DNA of 25,015 nt, from assembly GCA_963777955.1 (NCBI GenBank), contig CAVZSQ010000025.1, forward strand, positions 1 through 25,015, in the 5' to 3' direction. Within the stretch, counting starts at the first letter, position 1. Every line of letters starts with the position of its first letter. Below are positions 867-24,517 of the stretch, piece by piece. Below the pieces are notes generated by a model. The model saw only the letters and a list, made by a program, of their open reading frames with translations. It was not told where the DNA came from and made no database searches. Source of the DNA: Calditrichia bacterium (lineage in GTDB: Bacteria > Calditrichota > Calditrichia > JAJRVZ01). The position numbers and the translations under genes are program-made.

Positions 867-1266
867 ATAAACCTCCTGGTCAAATCCTGTATAAAGCCTG
901 AGATCATAAATTATTTTGTACATATTGCTGATCTTTATCAGGTATCCAAATAAATATTTATAAACATACGAACTGCCCGAATTTTCAATCAGATTAGCAG
1001 GTAATATACTTGAAAAACTCCGTCTGTCTAGAAATGGATGAGTATAAGCGATATTATAATTACTCGCAATTTCAAATTTCAATGTAATTTTTCTTTATAA
1101 ATATAAGTACTTCATTTCATCGAATTAACGCTGAAAATTGGATCCCACGCAACCTGTAAGTAATGTTATTTAGCAGAAGGCAGAAAGATATATTAAGTTA
1201 AAATTTTAGGTGATCTAATTGGGTTCATTGAAATCAAGATCCACTGAAAGTATTTAATAAATAATC

Positions 1267-2545: not shown

Positions 2546-2861
2546 TTTCTATCCTTTCATACTAATTATAACAAGAGAATTCAGAGGAGATAAGATTCAT
2601 ACTGAAGTTACAAAAAAAAGCCGATTGATCTCTATTTTTTTTCCGCTCCATATAATTGAATCTAGAAGTGTTATAAACTGTCTGGTTTATATTACAATAA
2701 ATGAATTAATACCAGCCGACAATGAATTTGCAAAGGAAAAATTGGAGTGAAACCAGTGCCGTAAGGAAATTACTGGTTTAGACAAAAGAATATACCTACT
2801 ACTATTTAAAACATGTATAATTTTTTATGCTTCGAACGTTATGTAGTAGGAGTAAGAACTG

Positions 2862-2947
2862 ATTACCATTTACATCGATAGATCTTTCGGGCAACGCCCC
2901 CCTGGGAGCGCCTGGAAGCCGGTTATTTTATCTGGCTTCCTTATTTG
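2862..2947 (+). repeat. Two-hairpin dispersed element, copy R1
   Basis: ATTACCATTTACATCGATAGATCT...CGCCCCCCTGGGAGCGCCTGGAAGCCGG-ttattttat-CTGGCTTCCTTATTT; aligns by eye with copies at 7107, 11113, 16046 and 22600. Confidence 0.9.
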
Positions 2948-2954
2948 GATAAAA

Positions 2955-3141
2955 ATTAAAAGGTAAAGAGGATAAAAGGTAAAAAGGATAATAGGTAAAA
3001 GGATAATAGGGTAAAAGGTTAATAGAACAAGGGGATAACAAGTTTTATTATCATTTTATTTTTTATCTTTTATCCTCTTAACATTTTTGCCTTTTATCCT
3101 TTTTACCTTTTATCCTTTTATCCTATTGACCTCTTTACCCT
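2955..3141. repeat. Inverted pair of degenerate 7-8-mer tandem arrays (AAAAGGAT/AAAAGGT units, then TTTTATCC/TTTTACC units)
   Basis: Purine-rich array at about 2955-3026 and complementary pyrimidine-rich array at about 3060-3141. Confidence 0.8.
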
Positions 3142-3150
3142 TCTCATATA

Positions 3151-3175
3151 GATCCCGGATCAAGTCCGGGATGAC
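3151..3175. repeat. REP-like palindrome GATCCCGGATCAAGTCCGGGATGAC
   Basis: ATCCCGGA/TCCGGGAT stem; resembles the widespread GTCATCCCGGACTTGATCCGGGATC extragenic palindrome type. Confidence 0.7.
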
Positions 3176-3212
3176 ATTTTGTTTTTCATTCCTAATGTGC
3201 TCAGCTACTTTT

Positions 3213-3262
3213 TTTGTCCCTTTGTCCCTTTGTACCTTCGTCCCTCTGTCCCTTCTTTACCC
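3213..3262. repeat. Tandem degenerate 8-mer array (TTTGTCCC)n
   Basis: tttgtccc tttgtccc tttgtacc ttcgtccc tctgtccc, directly after the stop of the phosphatase gene. Confidence 0.8.
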
Positions 3263-3272
3263 TTCTTATCTA

Positions 3273-5162
3273 TCACCTGAGTAAAATCATCTTCCGCACC
3301 TGCTCAAACTCACCCGCCTGTATCCGGCAGTAATAAATCCCACTGGGTAGACTATTTGCCTGCCATTCGTATTCATGCGATCCAGAATTTAATTTTGCTG
3401 AGATTAGCGTCACCAATCTCTGACCCAGCAGGTTATAAGATTTCCAAAGAGACAAATTCAGATTTGGGAATTGAGAATTGGATTTTGGTAATTGAATTAA
3501 AGGGATTTGGATAATTCTCCAGTATCACGGGCGAGACCGGCAGATCCGCTAATTCCCGGACCGCCTCCGGCGATTGCTCCGGAATAAGATTTCTTCCATC
3601 CAGGTTCCATTCCGGCTTGATTTCAATACCAAAATGTACGAGGGCGGTGACGGTCAGGTCAACGGTCTTGGCGGTTTGGCAGGAATCGAAAGCCAGGGTT
3701 TCGACGGTTGTATCCGGAAAGATCCACTCCGGATTCGTCCCCGTGAATGCCCCGTCGTTTGCGGGCTGACTCGAATCTTTGATCAATGTTCCCTGCCCGT
3801 CGTCCATTTTCCAATAGCCGAGCAGGTCGGAATAATTGGGATGTTCCGGCGTGACCGGTGTGAATATCCAGTCTTTGAACCTGGATGTCCGGAAGTGCCG
3901 TTTTCCAGACGCGGACTTCGTTAATACTGCCCGGGACAAACGTGGTTCTGCTGCTGGTGCCGTCCTGGCCGAGAACGAATCCGTACGGCGTGTCCACACT
4001 CCCTATCCCCGATATGTCCACGGCCCCGGTTTTGATTCCGTCCTGAAACAGCGTGAGAGTGCTTCCGCGCCGGAATACGGCGGTGAGGTGATGCCAGTGG
4101 TCATCGGCGATAATGGGCCCCGATATGTTTTTTTCGTTAGTTCCATCCGCTACATTGACCTGCCATTTGCCCTCGTCAATTAATACCAGGGCAAACCCGG
4201 GATTCTTTTTGTCGCTCATGTCCTTATTGGCAAACAAAACCGGGGTGCCGGACCAGCCGGCCGTCCGGATGCACAATTCGACGGTGAAGTCCTGAGCGGA
4301 ACCGAAATGGTAATCAGCACGATCCGGAATGGTGACATGCTCTCCGGCTCCGTTCAGGCGCAAACCATAAGGCGGAACCTGATATGACTTACTTATCCAA
4401 TCGTGCGGTATCTCTCCGCGCGGCACGGCTATCCCCGGATATGATGAAAAACGTGCGCATTTCTTCGATCATCGTGCCGCCATGATGGGTGGTGTACCCG
4501 CCATGATCGGTCAGGGCGATCACCAGCCAATGTTCGTTTGAAAAATTCGGCCGCGCTTTCATGGCCGAAATCACCTGGCCGACCTGGCCGTCCGCGACAT
4601 GAATGGCGTTGAGATAGCCGGGATTTTCCGGATCGAAACCCGCCGCATGCCCCGCAGCGTCAGCGGCGCCGAAATGAACAAACAGCGCGTCGGTTTGTTC
4701 TTCACTCAATAAGTCAATGGCCCGTTCCAGGGTATTGGCATCGGACCAGTCTCCGGCCGCAACATCCGCGCCGTGGGGCATGTCGGTACCCAGATTCGGC
4801 CAGTAAACAAACCATCCGGAATAAAAATCTGGATATGCGTCCTTAAACCGCGCGAATAACAGGGGGTATTGGTCGAACCTGGAGTTGGCGAAGGTGTTGT
4901 CCGTGACACCGTGCTTGTCGTTCCAAACGCCGGTGAAGATCGAAGACCAGCACGGCCCGCTTTTGGTGGGCGGCCGGCTCAAAGCCCACCAGGTATACAA
5001 GCCGCTGTCAGCCAGAGCGAGAAGGTTTGCGGCTTCGGCTTGCAACAGGGCGTCCGGACGGCAGCCGTCAGCGCTGAGAATCAGGAGTTTCTGGTTAATT
5101 CCCGATTCCAGCGGCACTGCATATATAGCCAGGAGAATCCAAATCCATCGAATCCGCTTCAT
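3273..5162 (-). CDS. Alkaline phosphatase superfamily (nucleotide pyrophosphatase/phosphodiesterase-like) protein with an inserted LamG domain and a C-terminal secretion (T9SS type A-like) sorting domain; frameshifts near 4420, 3880 and 3439
   Basis: Pieces 4389..5198, 3659..4426, 3433..3999 and 3273..3455. Motifs LILSADGCRPD, TKSGPCWSSIFTG, DAAGH, TDHGG; LamG WHHLTAVF...GSINEVRVW; CTD YPNPFN...SGIYYCRI...RKMILLR. Signal peptide from ATG 5162. Confidence 0.8.
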
Positions 5163-5192
5163 AAAATCATCCATATACAAATAATCCAGCAA

Positions 5193-6822
<1,630 letters not shown>

Positions 6823-6854
6823 CGGCGATTCGCGACTTAAGCCGCTGGTTGGGC
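6823..6854 (-). mobile_element. Left portion of a putative integron attC site (R''/L'' side)
   Basis: GCCCAAC (RYYYAAC) begins 10 bp after the TGA of the methyltransferase remnant and is followed by CAGCGGCTTAAG, typical of an attC R''-spacer-L'' layout. Confidence 0.6.
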
Positions 6855-6864
6855 GGCACATCGT

Positions 6865-7110
6865 TCAACCCCTTGGTTTTCTTGGGAACAACATCGGCGT
6901 TCTGGATTTGTACTCCAAATACGATGCCCCGAAGCGAATCTCCAATTCCCGTTCGTCATACACTTTCACGAAGAAAAGCAATGCCGGTGCAAACAGGATG
7001 AGTACCCAAAGCACAAACAGCATTGACTGAAACCAGATCCCCAACGTCAGGAAGAAAGCCAGCTGCAAGCACCATAGGATTACGCGTCCAAGCATACAAC
7101 CAATCTGCCG
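6865..7110 (-). pseudogene. C-terminal remnant of an isoprenylcysteine carboxylmethyltransferase / phospholipid methyltransferase family membrane protein
   Basis: AADWLYAWTRNPMVL in a shifted frame, then a TM segment and ERELEIRFGASYLEYKSRTPMLFPR. The 5' part is replaced by repeat copy R2. Confidence 0.8.
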
Positions 7111-7162
7111 CCGTCCCCTTGGGAGCGCCTGAAGCCGGCGATTCATTCGCCGGCTTTCTTTA
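7107..7162 (+). repeat. Two-hairpin dispersed element, copy R2 (5'-truncated)
   Basis: GCCGCCGTCCCCTTGGGAGCGCCTGAAGCCGGCGA-ttcat-TCGCCGGCTTTCTTTA. Confidence 0.9.
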
Positions 7163-7163
7163 C

Positions 7164-7264
7164 AAAGGGCAAGAGGCTAAGCCTCTTAGCCTTTTAACCT
7201 TTTGACCTCTTATCCTTTTAACCTTTTAACCTCTTAGCCTTTTATCCTTTTTCCCTTTGCCCTT
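7164..7264. repeat. Degenerate 8-mer tandem array (TTTTAACC/TCTTAGCC/TTTTATCC) bracketed by AAGGGCAA...TTGCCCTT inverted ends
   Basis: About ten 8-nt units, the same unit family as 3060-3141. Confidence 0.8.
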
Positions 7265-7285
7265 CTCTCGCTGCTTGAAAAAGTA

Positions 7286-10200
7286 CTACTTTATCAGAAT
7301 AAGTTTCTTCGTTTCCGAATACTTTCCAACCTGCAGACGATACAGATACACCCCGCTGGCAAAACCCGCAGCGTTCCAGTAGGCTGTATGCGATCCTGCA
7401 TCCAGTTTTTCATTCACCGGTGTGGCCACTTTCTGCCCGAGCAGGTTATAAATTTCCAGAGTAACCAATTCAGATTTGGGAATTGAAAATTGGATATTGG
7501 TTATTGGATTGAAGGGATTGGGATAATTCTGCTGCAAAGAATAATTCCAGCTGATATTTTCTTCCGCAGGAAGAGCTGTCGAAGTCGATTTCTGCAAAAT
7601 CGCCCATGATTTGTTATTATTCTCATGTATCTCCGGAAGCGCATCGTCCCTATCGATTACCGCATAAATCCGCGGATAAGTCGGCAGTCCCGCCGGAATC
7701 TGCCATAGCATTTCCACCAACTGGTTGCCCCTGGCCGGAATTGCCTCTTCGGTCAGAACCTGTTCTTCTCCCCCAGTCCCGACAATCAGAGTGCCGCCAT
7801 TATCCGGATCGCCGATATAAAACTTCACACTCATGGGACCGGGTGTCGGGATCAGGCTGAAATTATGAACACGGGCGCTGGATGCGGATAATATCACCAT
7901 CCCTGGGATCCGCGGGCAGGAAAACCAGATCTTTGGTCTGCTGACGCTTGGCTTCATCCTCTAAGGTAAATCCCTTTTCCGGATCATATCGCCAGGGAAG
8001 AATAAAGGCCGGATCAGCCAGATGACTGTAATTGACCTGCCACCAGGTCTCTGTTCCCCCCTGCGGGGCAATTTCAGGCCTGACTGCATAATCCACGACC
8101 AGGGCGCCATTGGTAGCCCAGTAAGTATAAGGTGTGACAATATAACTTACTTCACCGATGCCCATATCGATGCCGTCAAGATGCACACCCAGATTCAGAC
8201 CACTGGCCACATCTGTTTTATGCGTGGAGATTTCATTCTGACTGTAACTGCTGCTCAAACTGTATCCCGATCCCCAGACATCCACGTCAACACCCCACTC
8301 GCGGCTGTAACTCTTGGAGGTGCTGGCCTGGTTGGTTTCAAAATCATCAAACTGCAGCGACCAGTCATAACTGGAATTGGCATCCAGGACAAAACTGTTG
8401 TCATAGTTACCCTTGATTTTTTCGTCGACATCCGGATTATCGGTGAGCAGCGGATATTCACGGTAAGAAAGAATATTGCCGACCTCATGCGACGGGATAT
8501 AGGCATACCCGCTCCAGCTTTTGCTGGGGAACCAGCGGTTCTCGGTCACCAGCGGACGAACTACCAGCACATGACCGCGTAATTCAGCATTGCCGTAGAC
8601 CGGATATTCCCATAAATCATAATCCATCACCGTGGCATAAATCCGGTCGTCCTCCCTGGCATCCACGGCAATCGAAACGGTTACCGTGGTCGAATGTCCG
8701 CCGTATTTTGAGAACTGTTTGCCGTATGTTTCAGTCAGGTGTGCACTGACCGATACACCCCAGTAACTTGCCCCCGCCTTCAATGTACTTGGACGTCCCC
8801 CAGTCCTGCGTAAATTCAGAAGTAACCTCCGTGGACTGGCTGCTTTCCTTGGCATAATGGGAGACGAACTGGCCCTCATTTTCGTTATAACTGAGACTGA
8901 CATCGTAGGATTCACCGCCCAGGACGTCAAAATGGATCGGCGGTGCATTGAGTATGACCAGCGGTTGCAGGATGCTGGTGAGTGAATAGCGGGCCGGCTT
9001 GCCCAGCCGGATGTCACCGTCTAATTCCGCAGCCAGCAAAGGTTCGGTCTTGTCCCAGTCCCCGCTTGATATATAGGACATCTGATCCTTGAATTCAAGA
9101 CCGGTAAAAGTGCCCGCTTCATCATACTGAATCTCATATAAACTGGAATTATAATGCGGATATTGATTCACAATCACCAGTTCCATCCAGGGAGCCGTTC
9201 CCGCGCTGTCGAGGATGACATTACCGACCGTCAGAGCACCAAGTCTTTCTTCGGCTATTCCTGACAGATCCGCCCAGATTGCCAGATCAAGAGAGCCCGT
9301 TTCCTGATATATTTTGAATGTTTTGAGGCTTGTTCTGGAATACGTAGAGATAATTTCATCAAGATCATCCCCGTTCACATCAGCAGCTTGCAGCACACTG
9401 GTAACATAATACCAGCAATGTACGCCCACAGTATCCTGTAGTTGAAAGACCGGGTCGCCAACCGTGATGTTCTGCAAACTTTGATCTGCTTCAAAGGGCA
9501 CCAGAATATGGGAGATGGTATCAGTCAAGGCATCTCCCCAGACGGCGCTGGGAAAATTACGGTGAAAACTGATTACACCATTTTCCTTTTCAGCAGATAT
9601 GAAATGGCCTGCCGCAACATTTATATTGGTGATATCAAATAATGCATTCGTATTGGTATACAAAGGCATGTGTGATTTCAATACAAGGTCTGTGGCCAGC
9701 GTATCGTACTCATAAATGTTGGCGAACATTTCCCAGCCTCCTCCGTCCAGGCCGTTGCGCCCGGCCAGCAGGACTTCGTCGATCGCATCACCGTTGAAAT
9801 CCGCACATTCGATATCAAAGAGATACAGCTGGTCTTCACAAAGGTTGATATCGGGTGGTATGGTGATCTCCTGGTCAATGATATCGCCCAGCAGGCTCAC
9901 CTCCAGGGAATCATTGACATCGAAAAGGAGAATACGGACCAGTCCTTCATCATTTTGATTGGCCCAGTAAGCCAGGATAAATTCTTTCGATCTCGTCCGA
10001 ATCAAAATTGCCGGATTGTATCAAAACCGGGGAACTGACTGGCCAACCTCCCGCAGAAAATACCGCCGGACCTGAGACAGTCCCCTCAATAGTTTTTTCC
10101 CATCTGGCCACAGCTGTCGATACTCAGTGTATATTGATCCGGTTTAAGCAGAGAATAGTGAACCTGTTTATTGGTATTATCGATCCAGCCTTCGGCAATT

Positions 10201-10487
10201 TCCTCAACTCCGTCATTATCAAAATCGTCACAGATAAAATCACTGAACAGTACATAATCCGGAGGGGAATAAGACAAAACCTCTACGAGCGTATCACGGG
10301 CATAAACAGCCTGGCCCTGGAAATACTTGTAAATGCTTATTGTTCCGTCACTGAGCGCGATCATTTCGTTGCCGCCCCCCACCTGAATGATGTAAGATTC
10401 AGCCAGAGGATCGTCGGTGAGGTCCTGGGCATACGTCAGTTGGTAGAAAAGCAGAATTAGCGCTAAGAAAAATAAAAAATTTTTCAT
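7286..10487 (-). CDS. Large secreted protein (about 1060 aa if joined) with FG-GAP/VCBS-like repeats, a Ser/Thr-rich beta region, a CARDB-like domain and a C-terminal secretion sorting domain; frameshifts near 10100-10000, 8780 and 7880
   Basis: ORFs 10086..10487, 8731..10005, 7863..9017 and 7286..7957. ATG with AGGGGAG RBS and a signal peptide. DFDNDGVEEI, DFNGDAIDEV, DVNGDDLDEI; IYAVIDRDDALPEIHENNN; QNYPNPFN...KKLILIK. Confidence 0.75.
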
Positions 10488-10737
10488 TTTTTCTCCCCTT
10501 TTATGCTGGTCTGATTGTTCTGAAAGGTCAACATCTGGATAACATCTTAGTATTTATAGACTTCGCAGAATATATCCATCCAGTGTAATGGCGAATTCTA
10601 TTTTCAGTACTCTTGACACATTTATATAACTGATATAACTTTTCACTCTTGAAACGAAGGAATTATTACCAGCTTTAGTCAAAATATTAGAGAGATTAAC
10701 GCTAATGTTGTCTGGAAGATGCTGGCATACTATATAC

Positions 10738-10765
10738 AATATAAACAGATATTCAATTTATGCAA
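10738..10765 (-). promoter_or_regulatory. Possible sigma70-type promoter for the large secreted protein gene
   Basis: TTGCAT-N16-TATATT on the minus strand, about 250 bp upstream of ATG 10487. The context is AT-rich, so a chance match is possible. Confidence 0.3.
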
Positions 10766-10921
10766 GGAAATATCAGCCATATTTTTCATCTTTATTATAA
10801 TCTTAACATCTATATTTTTAATCTACGCGCTAAGCGTCTGCGGTTAATTATATTCAGTCAAAAATATATTTCCTGACTTTATTGATATACTGCAAAATAT
10901 TGGATGACATTCATAAATTAA

Positions 10922-11113
10922 TTTTCTAATCAGGTAACGATCACCATTTATACAATTTCCGGTCAGCTAATTGAATCAGAAACCATGAATTTAAATTCTG
11001 GTTCATATATTTATGAATTTGATGGATCCAGATATTCCACCGGTATCTATATTTATAGAATTTCAACTGTATACGGTTTTAGTGCTGAACGAAAAATGTT
11101 ATTATTGAAGTAA
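10922..11113 (+). pseudogene. Orphan 3' fragment of a C-terminal secretion sorting domain
   Basis: Manual translation FSNQVTITIYTISGQLIESETMNLNSGSYIYEFDGSRYSTGIYIYRISTVYGFSAERKMLLLK*. Preceded by an in-frame TAA, with no YPNP and no upstream gene body. Confidence 0.75.
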
Positions 11114-11200
11114 TTACCATTTACAATGATAGAGCTAGCGCCGACGCCTCCTTGGGAGTGCCTGGAAGCTGGCGAATATTCTGCCGGCTTCTTTATTTTG
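11113..11200 (+). repeat. Two-hairpin dispersed element, copy R3 (complete)
   Basis: ATTACCATTTACAATGATAGAGCTAGCGCCGACGCCTCCTTGGGAGTGCCTGGAAGCTGGC-gaatattct-GCCGGCTTCTTTATTTTG. Confidence 0.9.
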
Positions 11201-11273
11201 ATCCCAGACGCCTAGCGGCGCGCAGACTAAAAACATACCAGAATTAATCTATGTTAGATTAGTAGAAAAACAA

Positions 11274-11517
11274 ACTGTCCCGGCAGGGACAATATATTTC
11301 TAGAAAAAGGATATCATGGTAATTAATGTATAGTGCCGCCAGGCACGAAATATTACGTCCCTGCGGGACTACAACGAATAAGGCTAATCTATTGATCTAG
11401 AAATATATCATCCCTGAAGGGATGTTATTCGAGAATCATTATAATTTAAATAAATTAAAACAGAGAAAATCTGTTAATTTTATCTGCGTCGAAGATCTGC
11501 GTTCATCCGCGGTCAAT
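11274..11517 (+). repeat. 244-bp direct repeat, copy A (nested REP-doublet-like palindromes)
   Basis: Near-identical to 14112-14355. Contains GTCCCGGCAGGGAC, GTGCCGCCAGGCAC, GTCCCTGCGGGAC and ATCCCTGAAGGGAT arranged as nested inverted repeats. Confidence 0.95.
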
Positions 11518-11684
11518 TAATCATAATCCGCAACAATAAATCAAATTCCCCAATAATATTGCAATATCATCAAAAGTTAATTAATATATTATGCTTTAAT
11601 ACCCAAACTCTTTTATGTATCTACTTTAAATAAACACGGTTCCGGAACTGATTTTTGTCGATTTAAAAACTGAAGGAAGGCTAA

Positions 11685-14104: not shown

Positions 14105-14111
14105 GTATATC

Positions 14112-14355
14112 ACTGTCCCGGCAGTGAACAATATATTCTAGAAAAAGGATATCATGGTAATTAATGTATAGTGCCGCCAGGCACGAAATATTACGTCCCT
14201 GCGGGACTACAACGAATAAGGCTAATCTATTGATCTAGAAATATATCATCCCTGAAGGGATGTTATTCGAGAATCATTATAATTTAAATAAATTAAAACA
14301 GAGATAATCTGTTAATTTTATCTGCGTCGAAGATCTGCGTCCATCCGCGGTCAAT
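14112..14355 (+). repeat. 244-bp direct repeat, copy B
   Basis: Differs from copy A at only a few positions (ggac/tgaac, one T indel, aaaat/ataat, gttc/gtcc). Starts 7 bp after the kinase stop. Confidence 0.95.
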
Positions 14356-14466
14356 CTGAATTCATTACCAATTACCCTTTAACCATTTCCCTATCAGAAA
14401 GTAATAGTGTGCTATACTGTTGCTTAGTCGCTTCAATTTACCAACCAAGTTTCGCACACTCTCGGC

Positions 14467-15264
14467 CTAAAGATTAAATCCAATAACAAAAGCAAAGGTG
14501 TTTACAGTAGAGACATTATATTCAGCTGCCATGTTGAGTGCCCAGATAGAATAGGCTACTCCAGCATATCCCTGTGCAATTAAAACGCTTTCTTTAGCCA
14601 GATCTACCTTGGAGGTTGTTTCAGTTCCTACTGCCAGGCTCTGTTTGAATCCAATATATGGAGTTAAGATGGCAATTTTTTTACTTGCTATTAAATCGAC
14701 GCTATAAATATTCATATTAAAGTCGGGGACCCCAGTGAGCATTGAAACACTCGCCCTTACGGCTGCTGCAGGATATTTTTCAGATTCTTGTAAGAATGCA
14801 TATTTAAATTCTCCACCCGCCAGACCGTAATTGGCACCCGGGGCAGTAGTCCAATAACCGCCAACATCCATATTATCGGATACTCCCATACTTGCCCGAA
14901 TCGTCGGAATTGATATCACATCGCCTAAAGGGCAGTCTGCATCAGGATGGGTAAATGTATTGATCCAGGCAGGATCGTGCTGGTTGACGGGAGTGTACGA
15001 GTTATTAATGGCAATATTAAAATTCATTTTGCCAAGAGTTTTTGCTGGTGCCAGTGATTTAAATGACACCATTGCGCCAGTCTGTTCAGTGAATTTATGC
15101 CACTGGGCTTGCGTCAGTGAAGAATTAATGACCATCGAACAGGTCTTGACATTTGGATCGATATGCCAGTAAATATTGCTACCGGTACTTTGTGCATACG
15201 ATACAGCTGCGAACAGGAATAGAACTAAAGATATTACTATTCCGTAAAGTTGTTTGCTTCTCAT
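14467..15264 (-). CDS. Hypothetical exported protein, probable outer-membrane beta-barrel
   Basis: Intact 265-aa ORF with AGGGGG RBS and a signal peptide ending VSYA. Amphipathic strands (GGEFKYAF, TPYIGF, YAGVAYS) and C-terminal FVIGFNL. Confidence 0.65.
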   Translation of the reverse strand: MRSKQLYGIVISLVLFLFAAVSYAQSTGSNIYWHIDPNVKTCSMVINSSLTQAQWHKFTEQTGAMVSFKSLAPAKTLGKMNFNIAINNSYTPVNQHDPAWINTFTHPDADCPLGDVISIPTIRASMGVSDNMDVGGYWTTAPGANYGLAGGEFKYAFLQESEKYPAAAVRASVSMLTGVPDFNMNIYSVDLIASKKIAILTPYIGFKQSLAVGTETTSKVDLAKESVLIAQGYAGVAYSIWALNMAAEYNVSTVNTFAFVIGFNL

Positions 15265-15332
15265 AATTACCCCCTTCTAAAATGGTCAACGTGTTGATTA
15301 ATTTGACTTGTTTTCATGTTTTGTTCTCATGG

Positions 15333-15900
15333 TTATTCACTTTTGGCATCGCTCCTGTGTTCGGCCAGCGTGCACCGATAAAATCAGTGCCCAATCCGCA
15401 AGGTTTGTGATATAATCCTGATCGCAGTCCTTGATTAACCCGACACAGATCAGCGAGGCCAGGCCATGGGTAAATGTCCACATTTTCCTCAGGAGTACGT
15501 ACCGCTCACTGTCTGATAGCGACGTGAATCACTGTCCTTGGTCAACTCGGATTCCAGAGTATCGAGGAATTCCTGGACAACATCACTAAAGTTGTCCCCT
15601 TCCATCATAAGGGCCCTGTAAAGCCGGCGGTGCTCGTGGGCAAACATAGCGACGCCGGTTCCCATATTCAGAAGAACCCGACGGTGTAAGATCGGGAGAT
15701 GAATTCAAGACGGTCTGTGTTTCCGCCATCACCACGGCGAACTCATCCATTGTAGCAAAGTGATTGTAGACGGGCGCTGTTGAGGAATCCAGTTTGAAGG
15801 CGACGTTTCGAGCGGTCAGCGAGTTCAGACCGATTTCCTCCACCACGCTCAGGGCTGCCCCTATCACTTCATCTCTTGTATACTTAATTTTAGGTGGCAT
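15333..15900 (-). CDS. TetR/AcrR family regulator with a WHG-type C-terminal domain; several frameshifts
   Basis: N-terminal HTH MPPKIKYTRDEVIGAAL...LTARNVAFKLDSSTAPVYNHF. A shifted-frame C-terminus LLRKMWTFTHGLASLICVG ends at TAA 15333-15335. Confidence 0.8.
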
Positions 15901-15913
15901 ATCTCATTATTCC

Positions 15914-15969
15914 ATAACTAATGTTATATAACATACGTTAGCAAACGTATGTTATATAACAAATGTTTC
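15914..15969. promoter_or_regulatory. Four tandem 14-bp palindromic operators ATAAC-N4-GTTAT, probable TetR autoregulatory sites
   Basis: ATAACTAATGTTAT / ATAACATACGTTAG / CAAACGTATGTTAT / ATAACAAATGTTTC. Includes a perfect 18-bp inverted repeat (15922-15939 and 15944-15961), immediately upstream of the tetR ATG. Confidence 0.75.
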
Positions 15970-16045
15970 ATAAATTTTCAAGTATTTTTTAAAAATATTG
16001 CTCGAATATTCTCCCCGGTTGGCTCAAAACCGAGTTGGTATAAAG

Positions 16046-16112
16046 AATTAATTAAGAAGTGATAGATCTAGCACCGACGCTCCCTTGGGAACGCCTGGAA
16101 GCCGGCGATTTA
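16046..16112 (+). repeat. Two-hairpin dispersed element, copy R4 (3'-truncated)
   Basis: GATAGATCTAGCACCGACGCTCCCTTGGGAACGCCTGGAAGCCGGCGATTT, then oxidoreductase-derived sequence. Confidence 0.9.
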
Positions 16113-16492
16113 AGCGGGTTTTCCACTGTAACAGGCGATTAAAGCTACGATCGGCTTCCCATGCATATCTTTGGGCAGCCATGGTGCAGGAGGCGCGGGG
16201 CGCATCAGCAGGGCAAGTGTAAGTTCAAGCGGGGATTTCTCGGTAAGTGTACGGTACAACTCAAGCACCTTTGGCGCATCGCTGGCCGGCCAGGCGACAA
16301 TGCCGCCAACTACCTCAGGACCGACTGGATGAAGCACATAATCGATGCCGGTCACATTGTCCGTCGTCCAACTCTAGCGCCTGGTCAGATAACCGAATCC
16401 GCCGCCGAGAGTCAGTCCCGCAACGCCCGTGAGCGACACGAAACCAAGTAAGGCAGCGAGCCCATGCACTACGTTTCACGATCCACGTCACC
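16113..16492 (-). pseudogene. Decayed internal fragment of a second FAD/BBE oxidoreductase
   Basis: Aligns to about 21553-22043 (GDVDRET...ACYSGK). It has two nonsense codons (CAG>TAG, TGG>TAG), a frameshift and a 111-bp in-frame deletion. Confidence 0.9.
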
Positions 16493-17814
16493 AAATGGTC
16501 CTTTACTTCCTGCCCGCATGTCCTGTGTAACGGCAATTGCAGCCCGGCCTGAATCACGGCCGAACAGAAGAAAATAGACTGTTCCCGCCAACCCAAAACC
16601 GAAAGCGACCAGGAAGTTGGTTGCCGGCGAAGCAATGGAGTTGAAGAATGGCAAAAGATCCTGCCCTGCCCCGAGGGTGGCTATGATCAGTTCTACCGTT
16701 GAGGAGTCCCAGAGCAACGCCCCGCCAAAGGCCGCGATGGAGACGATAATGTCTCGGATGAGATAGTACACATCCAAACGTCGCCGCTTTTCTGCCCGTC
16801 CGGGGCTAAATCCATTATCAACGCTTTACGTGTGGGTTCGCCAAACTCTTTCAGCCCGCGGATTGCGAAAGCAACAGCCATTACCCAGAATGACTTTGCG
16901 GCAAGTAGATACCAGCGGGAAAAATTGCGAAAAAAACAAACGTTGTCACCACGAATGGTTTTTTGGTACTCTTATCCGCCAGATAAGCCACCGGAACATA
17001 TACCAGCATCGCCGTCATCATCTCGATTGTCGTCAACAAGCCAAATTGCAGCGGCGTAATCTTGTTGATGCTGACACACCAGATCACGACAAAAGCATAC
17101 GGAATTTGCTCACAAAAACGCACCAGTATATCCGCTACCAGCAGGTTTCGCAACGGCTGTACTGAGCAGGGCCGGGCCGTAGGACCCTGTACGTTTCTCG
17201 GCAGGAGTCCGTTTTTCAACGGAAATCATTACCTGCTGCAATATGAGCGACACGCCGGCCAGCAGCAGGGCGACGATGAAGGCGAGACGCACACCTTGCC
17301 TTTCTCCGAATGCACCGATCAGTGCGCCGCCAATCAGGGGCCCCAAAGCCATCGGAATACGCCGGACAAGCGAGTGCAGCGACACACCCATGGTCCGCTT
17401 GCTCCCGCGGTAAAACGGTCGCCACCATATCCATCGTGGCTGGCAATGAGATGGCCGTCCAGGAAACGAACAGGATTGCGCCAGGATGACGGCTTGCCAA
17501 CTGGGGATAACGATCACCACCACATAACCCGCCATGGCAATCAGATTGAACAGCAAAAGGGCGCGTTTGTAGCCCAGTTTATCGCTGGCGTAACCGCCGG
17601 GGAATGAATACAGGGCGCTGAGGAGATTGTCCAGACCGTTCAGCAAACCGATCGAAAACGCGCCGCCGCCCAGGGCCATCAGGTAAAGCGGTAGAAACCG
17701 CTCGGCCATCTTTTCCCCCAGCCCCACCAGTATTACCATGGCCAGCAGAGCCAGAATGTTTTTCTGTAAACCCAGGAAACCGGCTATTCGCCGGCGGTGC
17801 TTTACGATCTGCAT
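16469..17814 (-). CDS. Major facilitator superfamily transporter; multiple frameshifts
   Basis: MFS motif A GGYASDKLGYKRALL and its repeat VAYLADKSTKKPF; GLKEFGEPTRKALIMDLAP. Hydrophobic helices across ORFs 17110..17814, 16881..17219, 16693..16881 and 16469..16777. Confidence 0.85.
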
Positions 17815-17867
17815 ATCAACACAAGATCTTCGTGGAATAAAAAATTACACCATGCGGTTAGGCAGGA

Positions 17868-19528
17868 TCACATTTCCTGCAGATATTTGCGTACGAAGCG
17901 GATGGCCATGGCCCCTTCCCCCACCGCCGCCGAGATGCCTTTCATGGCGCCGAAACGGACATCCCCCGAGGCAAAAATCCCGGGTACGCTCGTCTCGGTC
18001 AGAAACGGTTCCCTGTTCAGGTCCCATAATTTTTGAAATTTATTATCTTTGGTCAAATCGCTGCCGCTGAGATGAATCCCGATTCGTCTCTCAGTATTAA
18101 ACCGTCAAGCCAGGCGGTGCCGGGTTTCATGCCGACATAGATAAAAAGCGCCTTGGCCGGCACAGTTTTTTCTGCCCCGCTGTTCCTGTCTTTAAGGGTA
18201 ATATTTTCCAGAACAGTTGAGCCGCCGCAGGCAACGACATCGGTATTGCCGGTTATTTTTATATTTGGCGTACAGTTTATATTTTCCACCAGGTAATTGG
18301 CGGCTGTTTCCGTCAGTTTATCGCGCCTGATCAGGATATTTACTTCGCCGGCAAATTTGCTCATGTACATGGCGGCCTGGCAGGCGGAATTACCGCCGCC
18401 GACGATGTAGATGATCTCGCCCCGGCAGGCCTGGGCTTCCACTGCCGCATTACCGTAATAAATCCCCGCCCCGCTGAATTTTTCCAGCCCCGGAATTTCA
18501 ATCCGCTTATAAGCGATGCCGGTGGCGATCACCACTGTTTTGCTGTGTATCTCCGAACCGTTGGTCAAAAGGGTGATTTTATATCCGTCTTTAACGGTTA
18601 TACTTTGTACTTCGGCGGGGGTCAGAATTTCTGTGCCGAAGCGCCGCGTCTGGGTCATGGCCCGGCGGGCTAACTCGGCCCCGGAAAGACCGCTGGGAAA
18701 ACCAAGATAATTTTCAATACGGGCGCTGCTGCTGGCCTGTCCGCCGGGATTGCTCTTTTCAATCAGCACTGTTTTGAGCCCTTCGCACGACCCGTATACC
18801 GAAGCGGCCAGTCCGGCCGGTCCGGCTCCGATGATCAACACATCGTACATTTCTTTACTGGCCTTTTGCTTGAGTCCTACAGCGGCGGCCAGGTCGGACA
18901 CCTCCGGATCATTCATAAAGGAACCATCTTTAAATACCACCAGCGGCAAGCCGGACCTGGAGGCATGAGCGCTGGCCAGATATTTTTCAGCCTCGGCATC
19001 ATTTTCGACATCCATCCAGATGTAGGGTACCAGGTTTCCGGCCAGAAATTCCTTGAGCCGGTGCGATTTGGGCGACCATTGAAAACCGATAATGCGTGTC
19101 GCTTCATGATCGGGCTTGTAAAGCGCCTGCCAGTCATCGAGCAACTCGTTGACCACCGGGAAAAGTTTTTCTTCCGGCGGGTGCCAGGGCTTCAGCAAAT
19201 AATAATCGAGTTTGACACTGTTGATCGCCCTGATGGCGGCTTCAATATCCGAGTAGGCGGTCAGCAGCACTTTCCTGGCCGAGGGGAAAATCTCATTCGT
19301 TTTTTCCAGGAAGGCCACCCCCTCCATTTCGGGCATGCGCTGATCGGAAATGAATAAAGCCACCGCTTCATTCTTCAACTTTAATTCCCTGATCAACTCC
19401 AGCGCTTCCAGGGCGGAATCGGTGGCCACGATTTTGTAACCTTCACGGTATTCATTCCTGATGTCCCGCTGGATGGCCCGCAGTACCTGAATATCGTCAT
19501 CGATTATTACGATGTAAGGAAATTTCAT
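17868..19528 (-). CDS. Response-regulator receiver fused to a thioredoxin-reductase-like FAD-dependent oxidoreductase; frameshift near 18060
   Basis: REC: IIDDD, SDQRMP, LLTAY, KPW. TrxB: IIGAGPAGLAA, IENYLGFPSG, VVIATG, VGGGNSA, ETSVPGIFASGDVR, AAVGEG. Confidence 0.9.
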
Positions 19529-19530
19529 TT

Positions 19531-20973
19531 TTACGCCTGGCTGACTTTTATTTCTGTTGATTCCTGTTTTTGTTCCCGGGGCAGGCAGACCGAAAACTCC
19601 GTCCGGCCGGGCTCGGAGGCGACTTTTATCTCGCCCTGGTGATGTTTCACGATCCTTTTTACAATATCCAGACCGATGCCTGTGCCTTCACCTACTTTTT
19701 TTGTGGTGAAAAACGGATCGAAAATACGCGATATTATTTCTTTGGGAATCCCGGCACCGTTATCGATAATGCCGACCGTCACATTTTTATGATCACGGCT
19801 TGTTTCAATAGTAATCTCCCCGTTTTTTCCCAGGGCAAATATGGCGTTATCGATCAGGTTGGTCCAGACCTGGTTGAGTTCGCCGATGTAGGCGGGAACA
19901 GCCGGCAGTTCCGGGAAAAATTTTTTCTGCACGCTTATATTTTTCTCACGGAGTTTGTAGCCAAAAAGGGTCAGGGTGTTTTCGATATCCCGGTGAATAT
20001 CGGTGGGCTGCAACTCGTTGGTCCTGTCCAGATGTACATAACTTTTTATCGATCCGACCAGCTTGGAGATGTGGCTGGAGGCTTCACTAAGGTCCCTGAT
20101 AATTTTACGGGAACTCAATAAATTTTCAAGCCAGGGCAGCGCCTGGACGAAGTCCTGCCTTCCCACCTGGTTGAGAATATTTTCAAGTTCCACAACTGAA
20201 AATCCCAGTTCAGAAAATGTTTCGGCCAGGTCTCTGCCGTTGGCCCCGTTTTTTTTCAACCACCCGGCCAGCTCGTCTTCGTATTCCATCTGCCGTAAAG
20301 CCGGAAGTCTGATTTTAGCAGACACGCGGATTTCAATTTTCTCGACCAGCGTCTGAATGGTTTGCATATGCTCCGGGGTCATCTTGCTCTGCAGCAGATC
20401 TCTGGTCAGCTCGTAATTACGATCCAATCTTTGACCGAGTTCATGGGCGATGCGGTTGATCGCCGCCGCCGGATTATTCAATTCATGGGCAATTCCCGCA
20501 GCCAGGTTCCCCAGGGCATTCACTTTTTCATACTGCAACTGGGTGGTGGCAAAGGCCCGGGCCCTTTCGGTCATGTATCCGACCAGCCGCTGAATTAAAT
20601 CAGGATTCAGCTGTTCCAGTTCGATAAAATACTTTTTATGCAGTTGCAGTGCTTTTACATCCCCCGCGGCATAAGAATAGCCGGGGTATGTTTTCATCCT
20701 GGAGTACGGCATTAAACCGGTCACTCCGCCTGTAGATTTATCATTCTCAAAGGTAAAATAGTACACCTGGCGTCCGTTGATGTACATATAAAAAGCGATC
20801 TTGCCGGCCAAAAGAATTATCAGTACAGCGGCTTCATCGCCATATTTGGCTATGAGATCGCCATCGGCATATTCAAAATATTCCGAGCGATCAAGAATCC
20901 ACTGCAGATGTTCATCAGGCAGGTCGCTTAAAGCGATAACTTTTTTCAAATCTTCAATGAGTACCGGTTGCAT
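19531..20973 (-). CDS. Cytoplasmic sensor histidine kinase with an N-terminal cyclic-nucleotide-binding-like domain
   Basis: Intact 480-aa ORF. H box [11 protein letters not shown] box [13 protein letters not shown]1 DNGAGIP, F box FDPFFTTK, G2 GTGIGL. Confidence 0.92.
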
Positions 20974-20999
20974 CGGTCAAATTGCCTTAAATGTTCAAC

Positions 21000-22415
21000 T
21001 CAGGCCGGTTTGATGTTCCGGTTGGTACGGAACAAATTCTGCGGATCCCATTGCGCTTTGATCTCGGCTAACCGCTGCAGTCCCGTGCCCAGCGCGGCCT
21101 CGGTCCGCTCGAATCCTTCTTCTTCGGTAATAAAGTTTATATATGTGCCGCCGGTCGAGAACGATTTCAGGTCGGTCCAGGCCCGGCGCACCCATTCTAT
21201 GTTCACGGTATCATCAGCCGCCTGCTCCCACGAACCGGCCACATTAAACAGGTAGCGTGCGTTGCGGTTGCCGACGGGAGAGTGCCCTTCTTCTGACCGG
21301 TTCAGAGCACCTTCGAGCTGGAACAGGATCACCGCCGAGTGGGGTGATCTGATTCCCGCGGCATGCTCGATGACCTTCCCGCACAGGGCTGGCTCGATGC
21401 CCGCCAGGTACTCGCTCTTCCAGTAATAACGCCGGCCCTTGGGCTGCGTGGCATCGAGTAACGATTGCAATTGTACGTACGGCCGGCGTACAAGAATATC
21501 ACCAATGGGATTTCCGAACGACTTGATCGGGGCAACGACCTTCTCGCCATCAGCGGCTTTGCCGCTGTAGCAGGCGAGTATGGCAACTATAGGTTTCCCA
21601 TGCATGTCCTTCGGCAGCCACGGCGCCGGGGGTGCCGGGCGCATCAGCGCGACCAGGGTGAGTTCGGCCGGCGCCTTGGCTGAAAGTGTGCGGTACAGAT
21701 CCAGCACCTTTGGCGCCTCGCTGGCCGGCCAGGCTACCAGGCCGCCGACAACTTCAGGACCGACAGGATGGAGTACATAATCGATGCCGGTGACCACGCC
21801 GAAGTTCCCGCCGCCGCCCCGCAGCCCCCAGAACAGATCGGTATTCTCATCATTGCTGGCCCGCACTATTTTTGCGTCAGCGGTTATGACTTCCATTCCG
21901 GCAACATTGTCCGTCGTCCAGCCCCAGCGCCTGGTCAGATAACCGAATCCGCCGCCGAGGGTAAGTCCGGTCACGCCGGTGAGCGAGACGAAACCAAGTA
22001 TGGCAGCGAGACCATGCAACTGCGTTTCACGATCCACGTCGCCGAGCAGGCAGCCGGCCTGAGCGTGAGCGATTTTTCTCTGTGGATCCACCCATACACC
22101 ACGCATAAGCGACATATCAAGCATAAGTGCGCCGTCGGCCGTGGCCAGGCCCGCGATGTTGTGTCCTCCCCCTTTGATGCAGAGCAGGATATCATTTTCG
22201 CGCGCGAATTGTACGCAGGCTATCACATCGGCTTTCCCGAGGCAGCGCACAACAGCCGCAGGACGACGGTCGATCATGGCATTCCAGACGGTCCGGGATT
22301 CCTCGTAGCCGGCATCACCGGGTAGGAACAGCGACCCCCGTAAACGCATTTTCAGACCATCGAAGATGTCCTGCTTCAGATCTCACTCATGCCCTTGTGT
22401 TGTTTTCACTCTCAT
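21000..22415 (-). CDS. FAD-binding oxidoreductase, berberine-bridge-enzyme (BBE)/FAD_binding_4 family; probable frameshift near 22385
   Basis: KGGGHNIAG, GLTLGGGFG, LFWGLRGGGGNFGVVT, YINF, KAQWDPQNLFR. The likely true start is ATG 22415 with a GAGAGGA RBS; the in-frame ORF starts at 22349. Confidence 0.92.
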
Positions 22416-22599
22416 TGTTCTGGTCCTCTCAGTAATAATTATGTTTAAACATATTCACCTGCAACAATCCGCCCGCAATAAGATAATTTATTGTTAAAAG
22501 ATCATATATTTCTGTGCGGTCATTGTACATAGTAATATGAATAATGTAACTGGAGTGTAAAATATTCCCGGGAATTGATGGCAGTTCTTAACAGGCAAT

Positions 22600-22683
22600 A
22601 TTAACAGTTACAAGGATAGAGCTGGCGGGTGCCGCCCCTTTGGGAGCGCATGAAAACCAGCGCTTTATTCATTGACTTTTTTA
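22600..22683 (+). repeat. Two-hairpin dispersed element, copy R5 (most diverged)
   Basis: ATTAACAGTTACAAGGATAGAGCTGGCGGGTGCCGCCCCTTTGGGAGCGCATGAAAACCAGCG; 21 of the first 24 nt match R3. Confidence 0.8.
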
Positions 22684-22706
22684 TCCTCTTCGTGGAACGT
22701 CTGCGG

Positions 22707-23735
22707 TTATGCCGGCTGGTCTGCTTTACGGTCTTTTTTCTCCAACCATATCAGGAAATAGTAATTGACCACCGCCAGGATGACCATCGCCAGCAGGAAG
22801 AGCGGATAAGCGATCTTCCAATTTCCCGGACCGGTCATCATTGACCATTCCGACATGCCGCCGATTCCGGCCAGCAGCGTCAGCGGCATGAAAATGGTGG
22901 TGATAAAGGTCAGGCGCCTGACTGTCCGGTTGGTCCGGTTGGCGGTCTGGGCCATCTGGTTGTTCAGCATGGATAAATACATTTCCATGAGGCTGGTGAC
23001 GACGTCGCGCGATGTCTCGGTCAGTTCGAAAAATATGGTCAGATGATCGTAAATGTCTCGATAGTAGAAGAGCGCTTTTTCCGGGATAAAGGGACAGTCC
23101 TTGCGGCTAGATCTTCACGAGGATCTCCCGCTCGTGGAAGAGGCTCTTGCGCAGGGCGAACAGGTCCCGGCGCAGATGGAGCAGTGTGGCCGGTTTAAAA
23201 TTCGACAGATCGGACAGGATTGTCCTCCTCGGCCAGATCCAACTCATCTTCGAACGCTTCGATGGCGACAAATTTCTGATCGACGATCTGATCGAGGATG
23301 ACATGCAAAAGGAAAGCCGGACCCGGCCGGACAGTCCCGGGAGCAAGTTCCACCAGGCGTTCAATACTTTTCAGAGAATTATTCTCTGCTGAACCGCGGA
23401 TATTGACCGTAATCAGAAAGTTGGCACCGATGAATGATATCCACTTCCCTGATCGTCAGCACTTTGTAGGAATAGTGGAAAGCGTTGAAGAGCATAAAAG
23501 TATAACCGGGATAATCATCGATTTTAGGAATCTGAATTTCATCGACACAGTCTTCGATAGAGAGCGGATGAAGTCTAAAAGGCTCGATCAGCTCGGAGAG
23601 TTCCTCCTTGGTCGGCTGGTAGTAATCCAGCCAGACGTACCCTTCGTTCCCGGCCGCAGCGATAACTTCAGCCAGGCTCGCCAGCGGAACAAGTTTCCCG
23701 GCTTTACTGATATGGTAATACCGTGCTTCCGACAT
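22707..23735 (-). CDS. corA: CorA family Mg2+/Co2+ transporter; several frameshifts
   Basis: YVWLDY, FRLHPLSIEDC...PKIDDY, LLHLRRDLFALRK, YRDIYDHL, LTFITTIFMPLTLLAGIGGMSE followed by a second TM helix; AAGGAG RBS. Confidence 0.85.
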
Positions 23736-23786
23736 CAATGACTCCTTTACCTGGTCTTAATCCAGACTATTATATATAAAATAAAG

Positions 23787-24374: not shown

Positions 24375-24517
24375 TTTTAACAGAAAGGAATATTAATTTA
24401 ATCGAGGAATTCTAATGGCCTAAATATAAATACAGGATTTGTACGGTCAAATAAGAAAGAGTAAAAAGCACGAAGGAGATTGCTTGGTCTAGATGAATCG
24501 GGACTCGGGTACTCGGT

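What the first reader, a model, noticed from the sequence alone, without database searches (positions are those of the whole stretch)
2862..22683. Five co-oriented copies of an unrecognised two-hairpin element punctuate the region into gene modules: candidate novel cassette/recombination site or structured RNA
Seen: copies at 2862-2947, 7107-7162, 11113-11200, 16046-16112 and 22600-22683, all in the same orientation and about 4.2, 4.0, 4.9 and 6.5 kb apart. Approximate consensus: ATTAMCAKTTACAWNGATAGAKCT-N8-9-CGCCCC-YYT-GGG-A-GCG-CCTGGAAGCCGGCG-loop-GCCGGCTTC-T-rich tail. Hairpin 1 can be drawn with a conserved unpaired A. Most stem substitutions give G-T wobbles on the plus strand (R1, R2, R3), which suggests selection on a strand-specific fold. 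Read on the minus strand, most copies lie between the end of one gene block and the upstream region of the next. There are no RYYYAAC/GTTRRRY boxes, so it is not attC, and I do not recognise it as a tRNA, riboswitch or CRISPR repeat. Inference: either a single-strand-folded site that delimits mobile cassettes for a recombinase or HUH nuclease encoded elsewhere (TTAC about 20 nt 5' of a bulged hairpin in R1, R3 and R5 recalls the IS608 left end), or a short terminated ncRNA family.
Basis: partly seen in the sequence, partly recalled or inferred. Interest (0 to 1): 0.85.

Follow-up and report, generated by a model that had tools for sequence, protein, structure and literature searches.

The report
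Serine-integrase scars behind a tRNA-Glu gene
The five repeats are leftover right-hand junctions from mobile DNA inserting again and again at the end of one tRNA-Glu gene; each joins the cut-off tail of a serine integrase gene to the tRNA's last bases and its terminator, so this is a known kind of gene-island stack with an unusual integrase, not a new RNA or hairpin recombination site.

Summary
The five co-oriented copies are real, but they are not a two-hairpin cassette site or an ncRNA. Each is an attR-type junction. The right arm of 'hairpin 1' is the last 14 nt of the genome's tRNA-Glu(TTC). 'Hairpin 2' is a tRNA-type terminator. The 5' 32 bp is an attP half-site. Read backwards, that half-site encodes the last codons and stop of a large serine integrase: 18 of 18 normally spaced copies carry a stop codon at the edge. 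A class-level relative (G016) holds an intact 16.5-kb element whose integrase gene runs into tRNA-Glu and whose far end carries a homologous arm. The window is an allelic variant of the island behind tRNA-Glu; it and two other contigs hold 14 such copies or remnants. No serine integrase was found in this assembly. Four window copies have lengthened spacers and one a decayed arm, so they are probably dead. This scan reported the tRNA-Glu scars before on another piece of this genome (e1-1522693), and similar serine-integrase scars in other phyla.

The parts
2863..2901 (+). R1 attP half-site (P arm). On the - strand it reads as the last codons and stop of the integrase gene (YRCKW-stop); spacer lengthened to 19 nt.
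2898..2911 (+). R1 tRNA-Glu 3'-end fragment; inferred crossover dinucleotide at 2902-2903 (CT here)
2914..2947 (+). R1 terminator hairpin and T tail (B' side)
7095..7118 (+). R2 decayed P arm
7115..7128 (+). R2 exact 14-nt copy of the tRNA-Glu 3' end; crossover TT at 7119-7120
7131..7163 (+). R2 terminator hairpin and tail
11114..11151 (+). R3 P arm (YHCKW-stop on the - strand; 18-nt spacer). It abuts the stop codon of a gene remnant whose homologues lie elsewhere in the genome.
11148..11161 (+). R3 tRNA-Glu fragment; TT at 11152-11153
11164..11200 (+). R3 terminator (11-bp stem and T tail)
16046..16112 (+). R4: decayed P arm, tRNA fragment (TT at 16085-16086, end 16094) and 5' arm of the terminator. 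It is cut off and joined to pieces of an FAD-oxidase gene.
22601..22683 (+). R5: P arm (YPCNC-stop, 19-nt spacer), tRNA fragment (TT at 22640-22641, end 22649) and decayed terminator. It is the most distal copy, and both flanks are shared with the C17 allele.
1..2862 (.). Cargo: TPR protein genes (shared with C17). The stretch at 1201-2862 had no homologue in the genome or in the loci fetched.
2948..7094 (.). Cargo: octamer repeats, LamG/phosphodiesterase gene, 5'-truncated catalase-peroxidase-like gene
7164..11113 (.). Cargo: large frameshifted secreted protein with a Por secretion tail, plus a gene-end remnant
11201..16045 (.). Cargo: Ser/Thr kinase-TPR gene, DUF6588-like protein, TetR-like regulator (name from its sequence, no Pfam hit)
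16113..22600 (.). Cargo: FAD-oxidase fragments, MFS transporter, response regulator-reductase, histidine kinase, FAD oxidase
22684..25015 (.). DNA beyond the last junction (corA and others), shared with C17 and G001

Best explanation
Each copy is an attR junction of integrative elements that use a large serine recombinase (LSR) to insert at the T-arm/acceptor-stem junction of tRNA-Glu(TTC). SHOWN from sequence: left = 32-bp P half-site; centre = TT dinucleotide; right = the tRNA's last 8 bases plus a terminator. The attP lies inside the 3' end of the integrase gene. Integration cuts off the gene's last ~9 codons and stop and leaves them at attR, while the integrated gene borrows a new tail from the tRNA antisense strand. 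That is why the arm's outer edge is sharp: it is the stop codon. INFERRED: repeated arrivals of such elements from related donors built the stack behind the single tRNA-Glu(TTC). [quoted passage not shown] The five window copies are probably no longer substrates, because the distal motif sits 6-7 bp too far out or has decayed.
For: Core = tRNA-Glu 3' end. A copy 6.2 kb behind the intact tRNA repeats its end and trailer over 110 bp at 94.5%. In G004 the tRNA-Glu lies about 1.3 kb from backbone genes whose homologues follow the array on C17. G016: a 533-aa Resolvase + Recombinase + Zn-ribbon protein reads into tRNA-Glu, and a homologous arm lies 16.5 kb away (24 of 32 positions match the consensus arm, counted by eye). 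The arm's 9-bp motif at -25..-17 is mirrored at +17..+25 inside the integrase gene (9/9 in G016, 7/9 in G031, 1-6/9 at 22 other tRNA-Glu loci). It recurs weakly 5 bp closer in the tRNA (4-6/9, versus 0-4/9 unshifted), the geometry described in PMC3783163. A stop codon sits at the arm edge in 18 of 18 normally spaced copies, 9 TAA and 9 TGA. 42 of the top 56 homologues end in tRNA-antisense-like peptides by a loose pattern. Of 17 viral loci examined, 7 are in the tRNA-joined state and 9 carry the same core with another tail. Copies sharing a left flank switch right flank just after the tRNA end in five groups, and several right flanks match tRNA-Glu trailers of other Calditrichota.
Against: No LSR was found in G000 or G001, so the link rests on one complete element in another family (G016) and a second attL (G031). 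No database protein among the top 56 ends in the predicted YxCxW tail. Simple tandem insertion predicts attP-like junctions with an integrase behind them, yet 0 of 33 junctions has a P'-type right half (best 6/9); an extra, unshown step is needed to explain so many attR sites with terminators. The window contig is not physically linked to the tRNA, and the C6-C17 order is inferred from synteny. The 18 copies were partly selected with a profile or pattern that includes the edge; 8 were found without it, and all 8 have the stop. The match of the window's terminators to a relative's tRNA trailer is modest: R1 scores 44 versus a shuffled top of 31, while R2-R5 score 25-34 versus 24-28. One content switch (window 1200 versus C17:288089) falls at the arm's outer edge, not at the core.
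Confidence: 0.85

Rival explanations
1. Active integron-like cassette system: integrase-less units (terminator - cargo - P half-site) are kept functional and are excised, shuffled and re-deposited behind tRNA-Glu by a visiting LSR element.
For: Module order differs among the window, C17 and G001. Right flanks switch at the core. There are many attR sites and no integrase. The same non-standard 18-nt spacer occurs in copies with unrelated left flanks (R3, R4, C17:292488, G001 C41), so sites do get copied.
Against: Only 2 of the 13 island copies measured keep the 12-nt spacing, none of them in the window. Many cargo genes are truncated or frameshifted. attR x attB is not a permitted pairing for characterised serine integrases (abstract of PMC3783163). 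Different order can also come from independent insertions or RecA.
Confidence: 0.2
2. The scars come from tyrosine-integrase islands at tRNA-Glu (classical Islander signature), and the resemblance to the G016 serine element is secondary.
For: tRNA 3'-fragment repeats are the classical tyrosine-integrase signature (PMC4383910). The trailer now behind G000's tRNA-Glu has paired short direct repeats like those behind tRNA-Phe, next to a tyrosine integrase on C21.
Against: None of the 4 Phage_integrase hits in G000 lies in the island, and tblastn found no remnant there. The stop-codon edge, the mirrored motif and the homologous arm in the LSR element are unexplained under this view.
Confidence: 0.07
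3. One reading: a single-strand-folded site for an HUH or integron-type enzyme, or a short terminated ncRNA.
For: The second hairpin prefers the + strand (9 of 11). Y1 transposase genes and an integron with attC-like sites exist elsewhere in the genome.
Against: The first hairpin's right arm is tRNA sequence. No Rfam match. My attC scan found none in the window and three on C20. The four Y1_Tnp hits are on other contigs. The TTAC varies to TCAC, TTAA or TCAT in a way that keeps a stop codon on the other strand. Copies with unrelated right halves lack hairpin 2 altogether.
Confidence: 0.04

Closest known systems
Dehalococcoides ssrA genomic islands (PMC3146451; passages read)
   Same: Tandem islands behind a single-copy tDNA. 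Each is bounded by a short repeat of the gene's 3' end, with a conserved motif just upstream of the repeat. A serine integrase (DsiB) is proposed, and 15 of 31 islands lack an integration module.
   Different: Target here is tRNA-Glu. The site lies inside the integrase gene's 3' end. No integrase is left in this assembly. Units are about 1-7 kb of mixed cargo.
CIMEs and tandem accretion at ICE/IME attachment sites (PMC5704250; passages read)
   Same: Decayed elements that lost their integrase stack at one site and can be carried along by a neighbour.
   Different: CIMEs keep attL and attR. Here every junction is P plus host-type trailer, and no attL-type P' half was found.
Additive flexible genomic islands (PMC5217437, PMC7771536; passages read)
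   Same: Gene cassettes added at tRNAs, marked by direct repeats of the tRNA end; a tRNA-Glu hot spot is mentioned for Ca. Actinomarinales.
   Different: In the passages seen no enzyme or half-site anatomy is assigned.
Thermotogota proviruses at tRNA-Glu with serine recombinases (bioRxiv 10.1101/2020.11.07.368316; passages read)
   Same: Serine recombinases proposed to target tRNA-Glu.
   Different: These are proviruses. The passages seen do not map att sites or an attP inside the gene. Relationship of those enzymes to this clade was not tested.
Integrases that extend across attP (Mx8, SSV; as mentioned in PMC4383910)
   Same: Integration splits the integrase gene and changes its end.
   Different: Those are tyrosine integrases; the same paper states that only tyrosine integrases were known to target tDNAs.

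Membership tests
tRNA-targeted island junction (Islander signature) | Fragment of the 3' end of a tRNA gene of the same genome | tested here: met
   14 of 14 nt in R2; 11-12 of 13 in R1, R3, R4 and R5
tRNA-targeted island junction (Islander signature) | Fragment downstream of and co-oriented with the intact tRNA | tested here: inconclusive
   Direct for C6:51387; for C17 and the window inferred from synteny with G004 and G007, contigs not joined
tRNA-targeted island junction (Islander signature) | Integrase gene inside each island | tested here: not met
   No tyrosine or serine integrase in the window, the C17 end or the C6 island
Large serine integrase att site | Two half-sites symmetric about a central dinucleotide | tested here: met
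   8-TT-8 inverted repeat, up to 7 of 8 in normally spaced copies and 4-6 of 8 in window copies; distal motif mirrored at -25..-17 and +17..+25 in G016
Large serine integrase att site | Distal motif 5 bp closer to the centre in attB than in attP | tested here: met
   4-6 of 9 at -20..-12 versus 0-4 of 9 at -25..-17 in 24 tRNA-Glu loci. The match is weak and on one half only; rule from PMC3783163.
Large serine integrase att site | Cognate LSR in an element bounded by these sites | tested here: met
   G016 element; second attL in G031; not in G000
Large serine integrase att site | Correct spacing in the five window copies | tested here: not met
   Spacer 18-19 nt versus 12 nt; R2 arm decayed
Large serine integrase att site | Recombination at the site | not testable with these tools
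   Needs an assay
Integron attC | RYYYAAC...GTTRRRY boxes closing a bottom-strand hairpin | tested here: not met
   None in the window; the same scan finds three on C20
IS200/IS605 end or REP | Fixed TTAC-type target and linked Y1 HUH gene | tested here: not met
   Tetranucleotide varies; Y1_Tnp hits only on C19 and C22
Structured ncRNA family | Match to a described family | tested here: not met
   Rfam search
Structured ncRNA family | Discrete transcript | not testable with these tools
   No RNA holder listed
CIME | Lost integrase but retains both attL and attR | tested here: inconclusive
   Integrase absent; only attR-type junctions seen, 0 of 33 with a P' half

The most novel reading that the evidence does not exclude
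tRNA-Glu works as an integron-like platform. A widespread clade of serine integrases whose attP lies inside their own gene visits the site, picks up neighbouring integrase-less units bounded only by attR sites, carries them between Calditrichota lineages (bringing the donor's tRNA terminator along) and drops them behind the new host's tRNA. This would be a cassette system with no resident integrase, in which each junction records its donor. Variant integrases with +3-bp spacing may exist.
Probability: 0.2. Interest if true: 0.65.

Novelty: new variant of a known kind. Interest (0 to 1): 0.36.

Why it matters
It removes a candidate new RNA or hairpin site and names the enzyme class behind a large tRNA-anchored island. 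The by-product is more useful than the repeat itself: a serine-integrase clade with inferred attP, attB and crossover at the conserved end of tRNA-Glu. Such islands are missed by pipelines that require a tyrosine integrase inside the island (PMC4383910). The G016 element can be assayed directly, and a tRNA-restoring serine integrase could be a broad-host integration tool. How many attR sites with terminators accumulate without an integrase is still an open, testable question.

Tried and rejected
Rfam at E<=5: nothing at the copies. Exact arm+core pattern: 0 in viral contigs; 4 stretches in genome contigs, one of which, in a Saprospiraceae record, lies inside an ORF and was not recovered by my profile, so it was treated as chance; 7 in metagenome contigs. 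Arm pattern with 1 mismatch: 4 of 86 phylum genomes; it missed G016's arm, so it undercounts. Tyrosine integrases: 4 hits in G000, none in the island. The ~330-aa ones tested in G004 and G007 are integron integrases. Y1 transposases lie elsewhere. A single-protein search of viral contigs found nothing; the alignment found 19 loci, of which I examined 17, leaving out one cut-short and one weak locus. The promoter scan of 1-20000 was at chance level (39 versus 35.9). Sequencing runs: no RNA holder listed and only small-share DNA holders. Laying four contig sets on 7300-14100 gave no informative junction: one joint across R3 with a 21-letter side, not used. The codon tables printed were in the wrong frame; the frame used comes and from the G016 gene, and the stop count from the plus-strand triplets. 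The 22-copy frequency table wrongly included four long-spacer copies; counts use the 18-copy set. Literature: searches showed no paper describing this element, or an LSR with attP inside its gene at tRNA-Glu. The library is limited to open papers, and I read no supplements, where att-site tables (e.g. of LSR surveys) could hold this clade.
Full report
OBSERVATION. A profile made from ten copies outside the window recovers exactly these five at E 7e-18 to 3e-11, against a best E of 0.66 in 40 shuffled windows. A profile from the five copies gives 16 genome hits at E<=0.003: five in the window (contig C25), eight co-oriented on the last 22 kb of C17, and one each on C3, C6 and C27. Rfam has nothing at these places. 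R2 and R4 have decayed 5' parts, R4 lacks the 3' arm of hairpin 2, and R5's hairpin 2 no longer folds. The organism belongs to Calditrichota according to earlier notes on this genome (unchecked); record titles of three pattern hits name the same phylum.

CONTEXT. The window is an allelic version of C17:289281 to 275389: blocks of 1207, 1970 and 4030 bp match at 88-92%, with different modules between them. It probably comes from a second related population in the bin (inference; several other small contigs duplicate larger ones). The cargo is ordinary and often broken: TPR proteins, secreted proteins with Por tails, a kinase, MFS, a two-component pair, an FAD oxidase. In the same-genus genome G001 some of the same modules occur in other orders.

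THE CORE IS tRNA. The tRNA-Glu(TTC) at C6:45138-45211 ends in the 14 nt that form the right part of 'hairpin 1'. R2 matches 14 of 14; the others match 11-12 of 13. The C6 copy lies 6.2 kb behind the tRNA on the same strand and repeats its end and trailer over 110 bp at 94.5%. In G004 the tRNA-Glu is followed within about 1.3 kb by an S9-type peptidase and a run of backbone genes (gene names read from sequence). Their homologues lie beyond the array on C17, and the genes before the tRNA match C6. So the order is tRNA-Glu, C6 island, C17 (or window) array, backbone. This is inferred from synteny; the contigs do not overlap. Hairpin 2 is a terminator on the tRNA's strand: it folds better on + in 9 of 11 copies. 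It resembles the trailer of G004's tRNA-Glu, clearly for R1 and two outside copies (scores 44-48 versus shuffled tops of 29-31) but not for R2-R5. Other copies carry trailers matching those of G000/G001, G002, G004 or G007.

THE 5' ARM IS THE TAIL OF A SERINE INTEGRASE. Notes from other phyla (e1-1555680, e1-1181050, e1-1195281) pointed to serine integrases. Read on the - strand in the frame that passes through the tRNA end, the arm encodes LPRGRYVYHCKW-stop or close variants. In the 18 copies with the standard 12-nt spacer, the triplet at the outer edge is a stop in 18 of 18 (9 TAA, 9 TGA), and conservation ends there. Eight of these were found without using that position. Among the tRNA-Glu loci fetched, G016 has 534 open codons running into the tRNA. 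This is a 533-aa protein with Resolvase, Recombinase and zinc-ribbon domains, followed by an IrrE-like peptidase, two HTH proteins, a primase/helicase and cargo. The only other exact copy of the tRNA end in G016 lies 16.5 kb away, preceded by an arm that matches ours at 24 of 32 positions of the consensus (counted by eye). The arm's 9-bp motif at -25..-17 from the central TT is mirrored at +17..+25 inside the integrase gene: 9 of 9 in G016, 7 of 9 in G031, and 1-6 of 9 at 22 other tRNA-Glu loci. It appears weakly 5 bp closer in the tRNA itself. PMC3783163 describes this arrangement: a 9-bp zinc-domain motif at positions 16-24 of attP, shifted 5 bp inward in attB (passages). Ours lies 1-2 bp further out, depending on numbering. 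The clade is wide: 42 of the top 56 homologues end in tRNA-antisense-like peptides by a loose pattern. Of 17 viral loci examined, 5 overlap a tRNA-Glu, 2 end in tRNA sequence at a contig edge, 9 carry the same core with another tail and 1 shows neither. No protein with the predicted YxCxW tail turned up among the 56.

MECHANISM. Shown by sequence: each copy is P half-site, TT, tRNA end, terminator, which is an attR. Inferred from LSR biochemistry: attP x attB recombination at the TT restores the tRNA, gives the integrase a tail from the tRNA antisense strand, and leaves the old tail at attR. Consistent with crossover in the core, copies that share a left flank switch right flank just after the tRNA end in five groups: R3 and C17:290861 versus G001 C41; C17:298236 versus C6; C3 versus a second G001 C41 copy; C27 versus G001 C439; and two metagenome copies. 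R5 keeps both flanks in C17 and, by block positions, in G001, so it is old. What is not shown is how so many attR sites with terminators piled up. Plain tandem insertion should leave attP-like junctions with an integrase behind them, and 0 of 33 junctions has that right half. My preferred route is accretion and co-transfer followed by excision of the integrase-bearing part alone, as described for CIMEs (PMC5704250 passages). It may be helped by homologous recombination between the repeats and by local duplication of tRNA ends, which occurs in this phylum (eight copies of the tRNA end within 1.7 kb in G013). No LSR was found in G000 by Pfam, tblastn or a clade profile; the assembly is 92% complete and broken inside the island. 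The clade was found in 3 of 86 phylum genomes, one of them weakly. Only 2 of 13 island copies measured keep the 12-nt spacer. The window copies have 18-19 nt or a decayed arm, so they are probably inactive.

AGAINST AND UNEXPLAINED. One switch falls at the arm's outer edge: window position 1200 continues into a stretch without homologues, where C17 continues into an arm. It is one case with three shared bases. Spacer lengths cluster at 12, 15 and 18-19, and the same long spacer recurs next to unrelated cargo. Triplet slippage plus conversion between copies would explain this, but so would variant integrases. The C3 and C27 copies lie away from tRNA-Glu and have degenerate cores and another right flank; they may be secondary sites or displaced pieces.

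COMPARISON AND VERDICT. It works like the tandem ssrA islands of Dehalococcoides, which also have a motif beside the repeat, a proposed serine integrase and many units without one (PMC3146451 passages). It also works like additive islands at tRNAs. Serine recombinases next to tRNA-Glu were proposed for Thermotogota proviruses. Integrase genes crossing attP are known for tyrosine enzymes. My searches showed no paper mapping an attP inside an LSR gene at tRNA-Glu; supplements were not read. It is not an attC, IS200/IS605 end or Rfam RNA. Verdict: a real feature and a new variant of a known kind, interest 0.36. The scan had already recognised the tRNA scars in this genome and the serine-integrase link in other phyla. 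New here are the enzyme, the half-site geometry and the stop-codon edge for this array.

Noticed in passing
G016 C12:63613-80195 (L094): Complete 16.5-kb integrative element at tRNA-Glu: LSR, IrrE-like peptidase, two HTH proteins, primase/helicase, and cargo (TPR protein, probable glycosyltransferase, two secreted proteins). A ready test system.
   Followed up: yes
G070 C6:46492-47561 (L074, L093): A 1-kb islet with an apparent antitoxin/PIN-domain pair lies between tRNA-Glu and a normally spaced arm: the same system in another family.
   Followed up: partly
window 1200 versus C17:288089: Homology stops exactly at the arm's outer edge. The window continues into 1.66 kb with no homologue found, then R1.
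   Followed up: partly
window 16113-16494: Two pieces of the FAD-oxidase gene sit directly after the cut R4. They are closer to the C17 allele (91-95%) than to the window's own copy (79-88%).
   Followed up: no
window 11274-11517 and 14112-14355: 245-bp direct repeat (98%) of small-hairpin-rich DNA flanking the kinase-TPR gene; a related copy lies at C17:115233.
   Followed up: no
window 2950-3270 and 7165-7270: Octamer-period repeats and REP-like hairpins follow the R1 and R2 terminators, then the 3' end of a secretion-tail gene; possible substrates for ectopic recombination.
   Followed up: partly
G000 C6:45060-45137: A degenerate copy of the 5' three quarters of tRNA-Glu sits directly upstream of the intact gene.
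   Followed up: no
L053, L054, L058; G000 C3:243859-244101: Small GIY-YIG-like ORFs (recognised from sequence, no family search) follow several junctions. In L058 a second tRNA-Glu 3' fragment follows the ORF.
   Followed up: no
G013 C1:4552634-4554351 (L088): Eight copies of the tRNA-Glu 3' end with terminator, mostly 168 bp apart; seven have a hairpin inserted in the T-loop.
   Followed up: no
G000 C20:46635-50864: Partial tyrosine recombinase with three attC-like sites nearby: a probable integron, separate from this array. Full integron integrases were confirmed in G004 and G007.
   Followed up: partly
L032 19330-19430 (C6 island): An attC-looking stretch between small genes, seen by eye; my strict scan did not list it.
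   Followed up: partly
G000 C27:6156-6457 and 9659-9961; C17:283545-283771: A ~300-bp AT-rich block precedes several arms and lies upstream of unrelated genes that read away from the junction; possibly a shared promoter region.
   Followed up: no
G018 C49:13367 (L075): An arm-like motif without a tRNA core follows a gene of the same repeat-protein family that abuts R3.
   Followed up: no
G000 contigs C2, C9-C12, C14, C16, C25: Small contigs duplicate parts of larger ones at roughly 85-99% identity, so the bin probably mixes related populations; many ORFs are frameshifted.
   Followed up: partly
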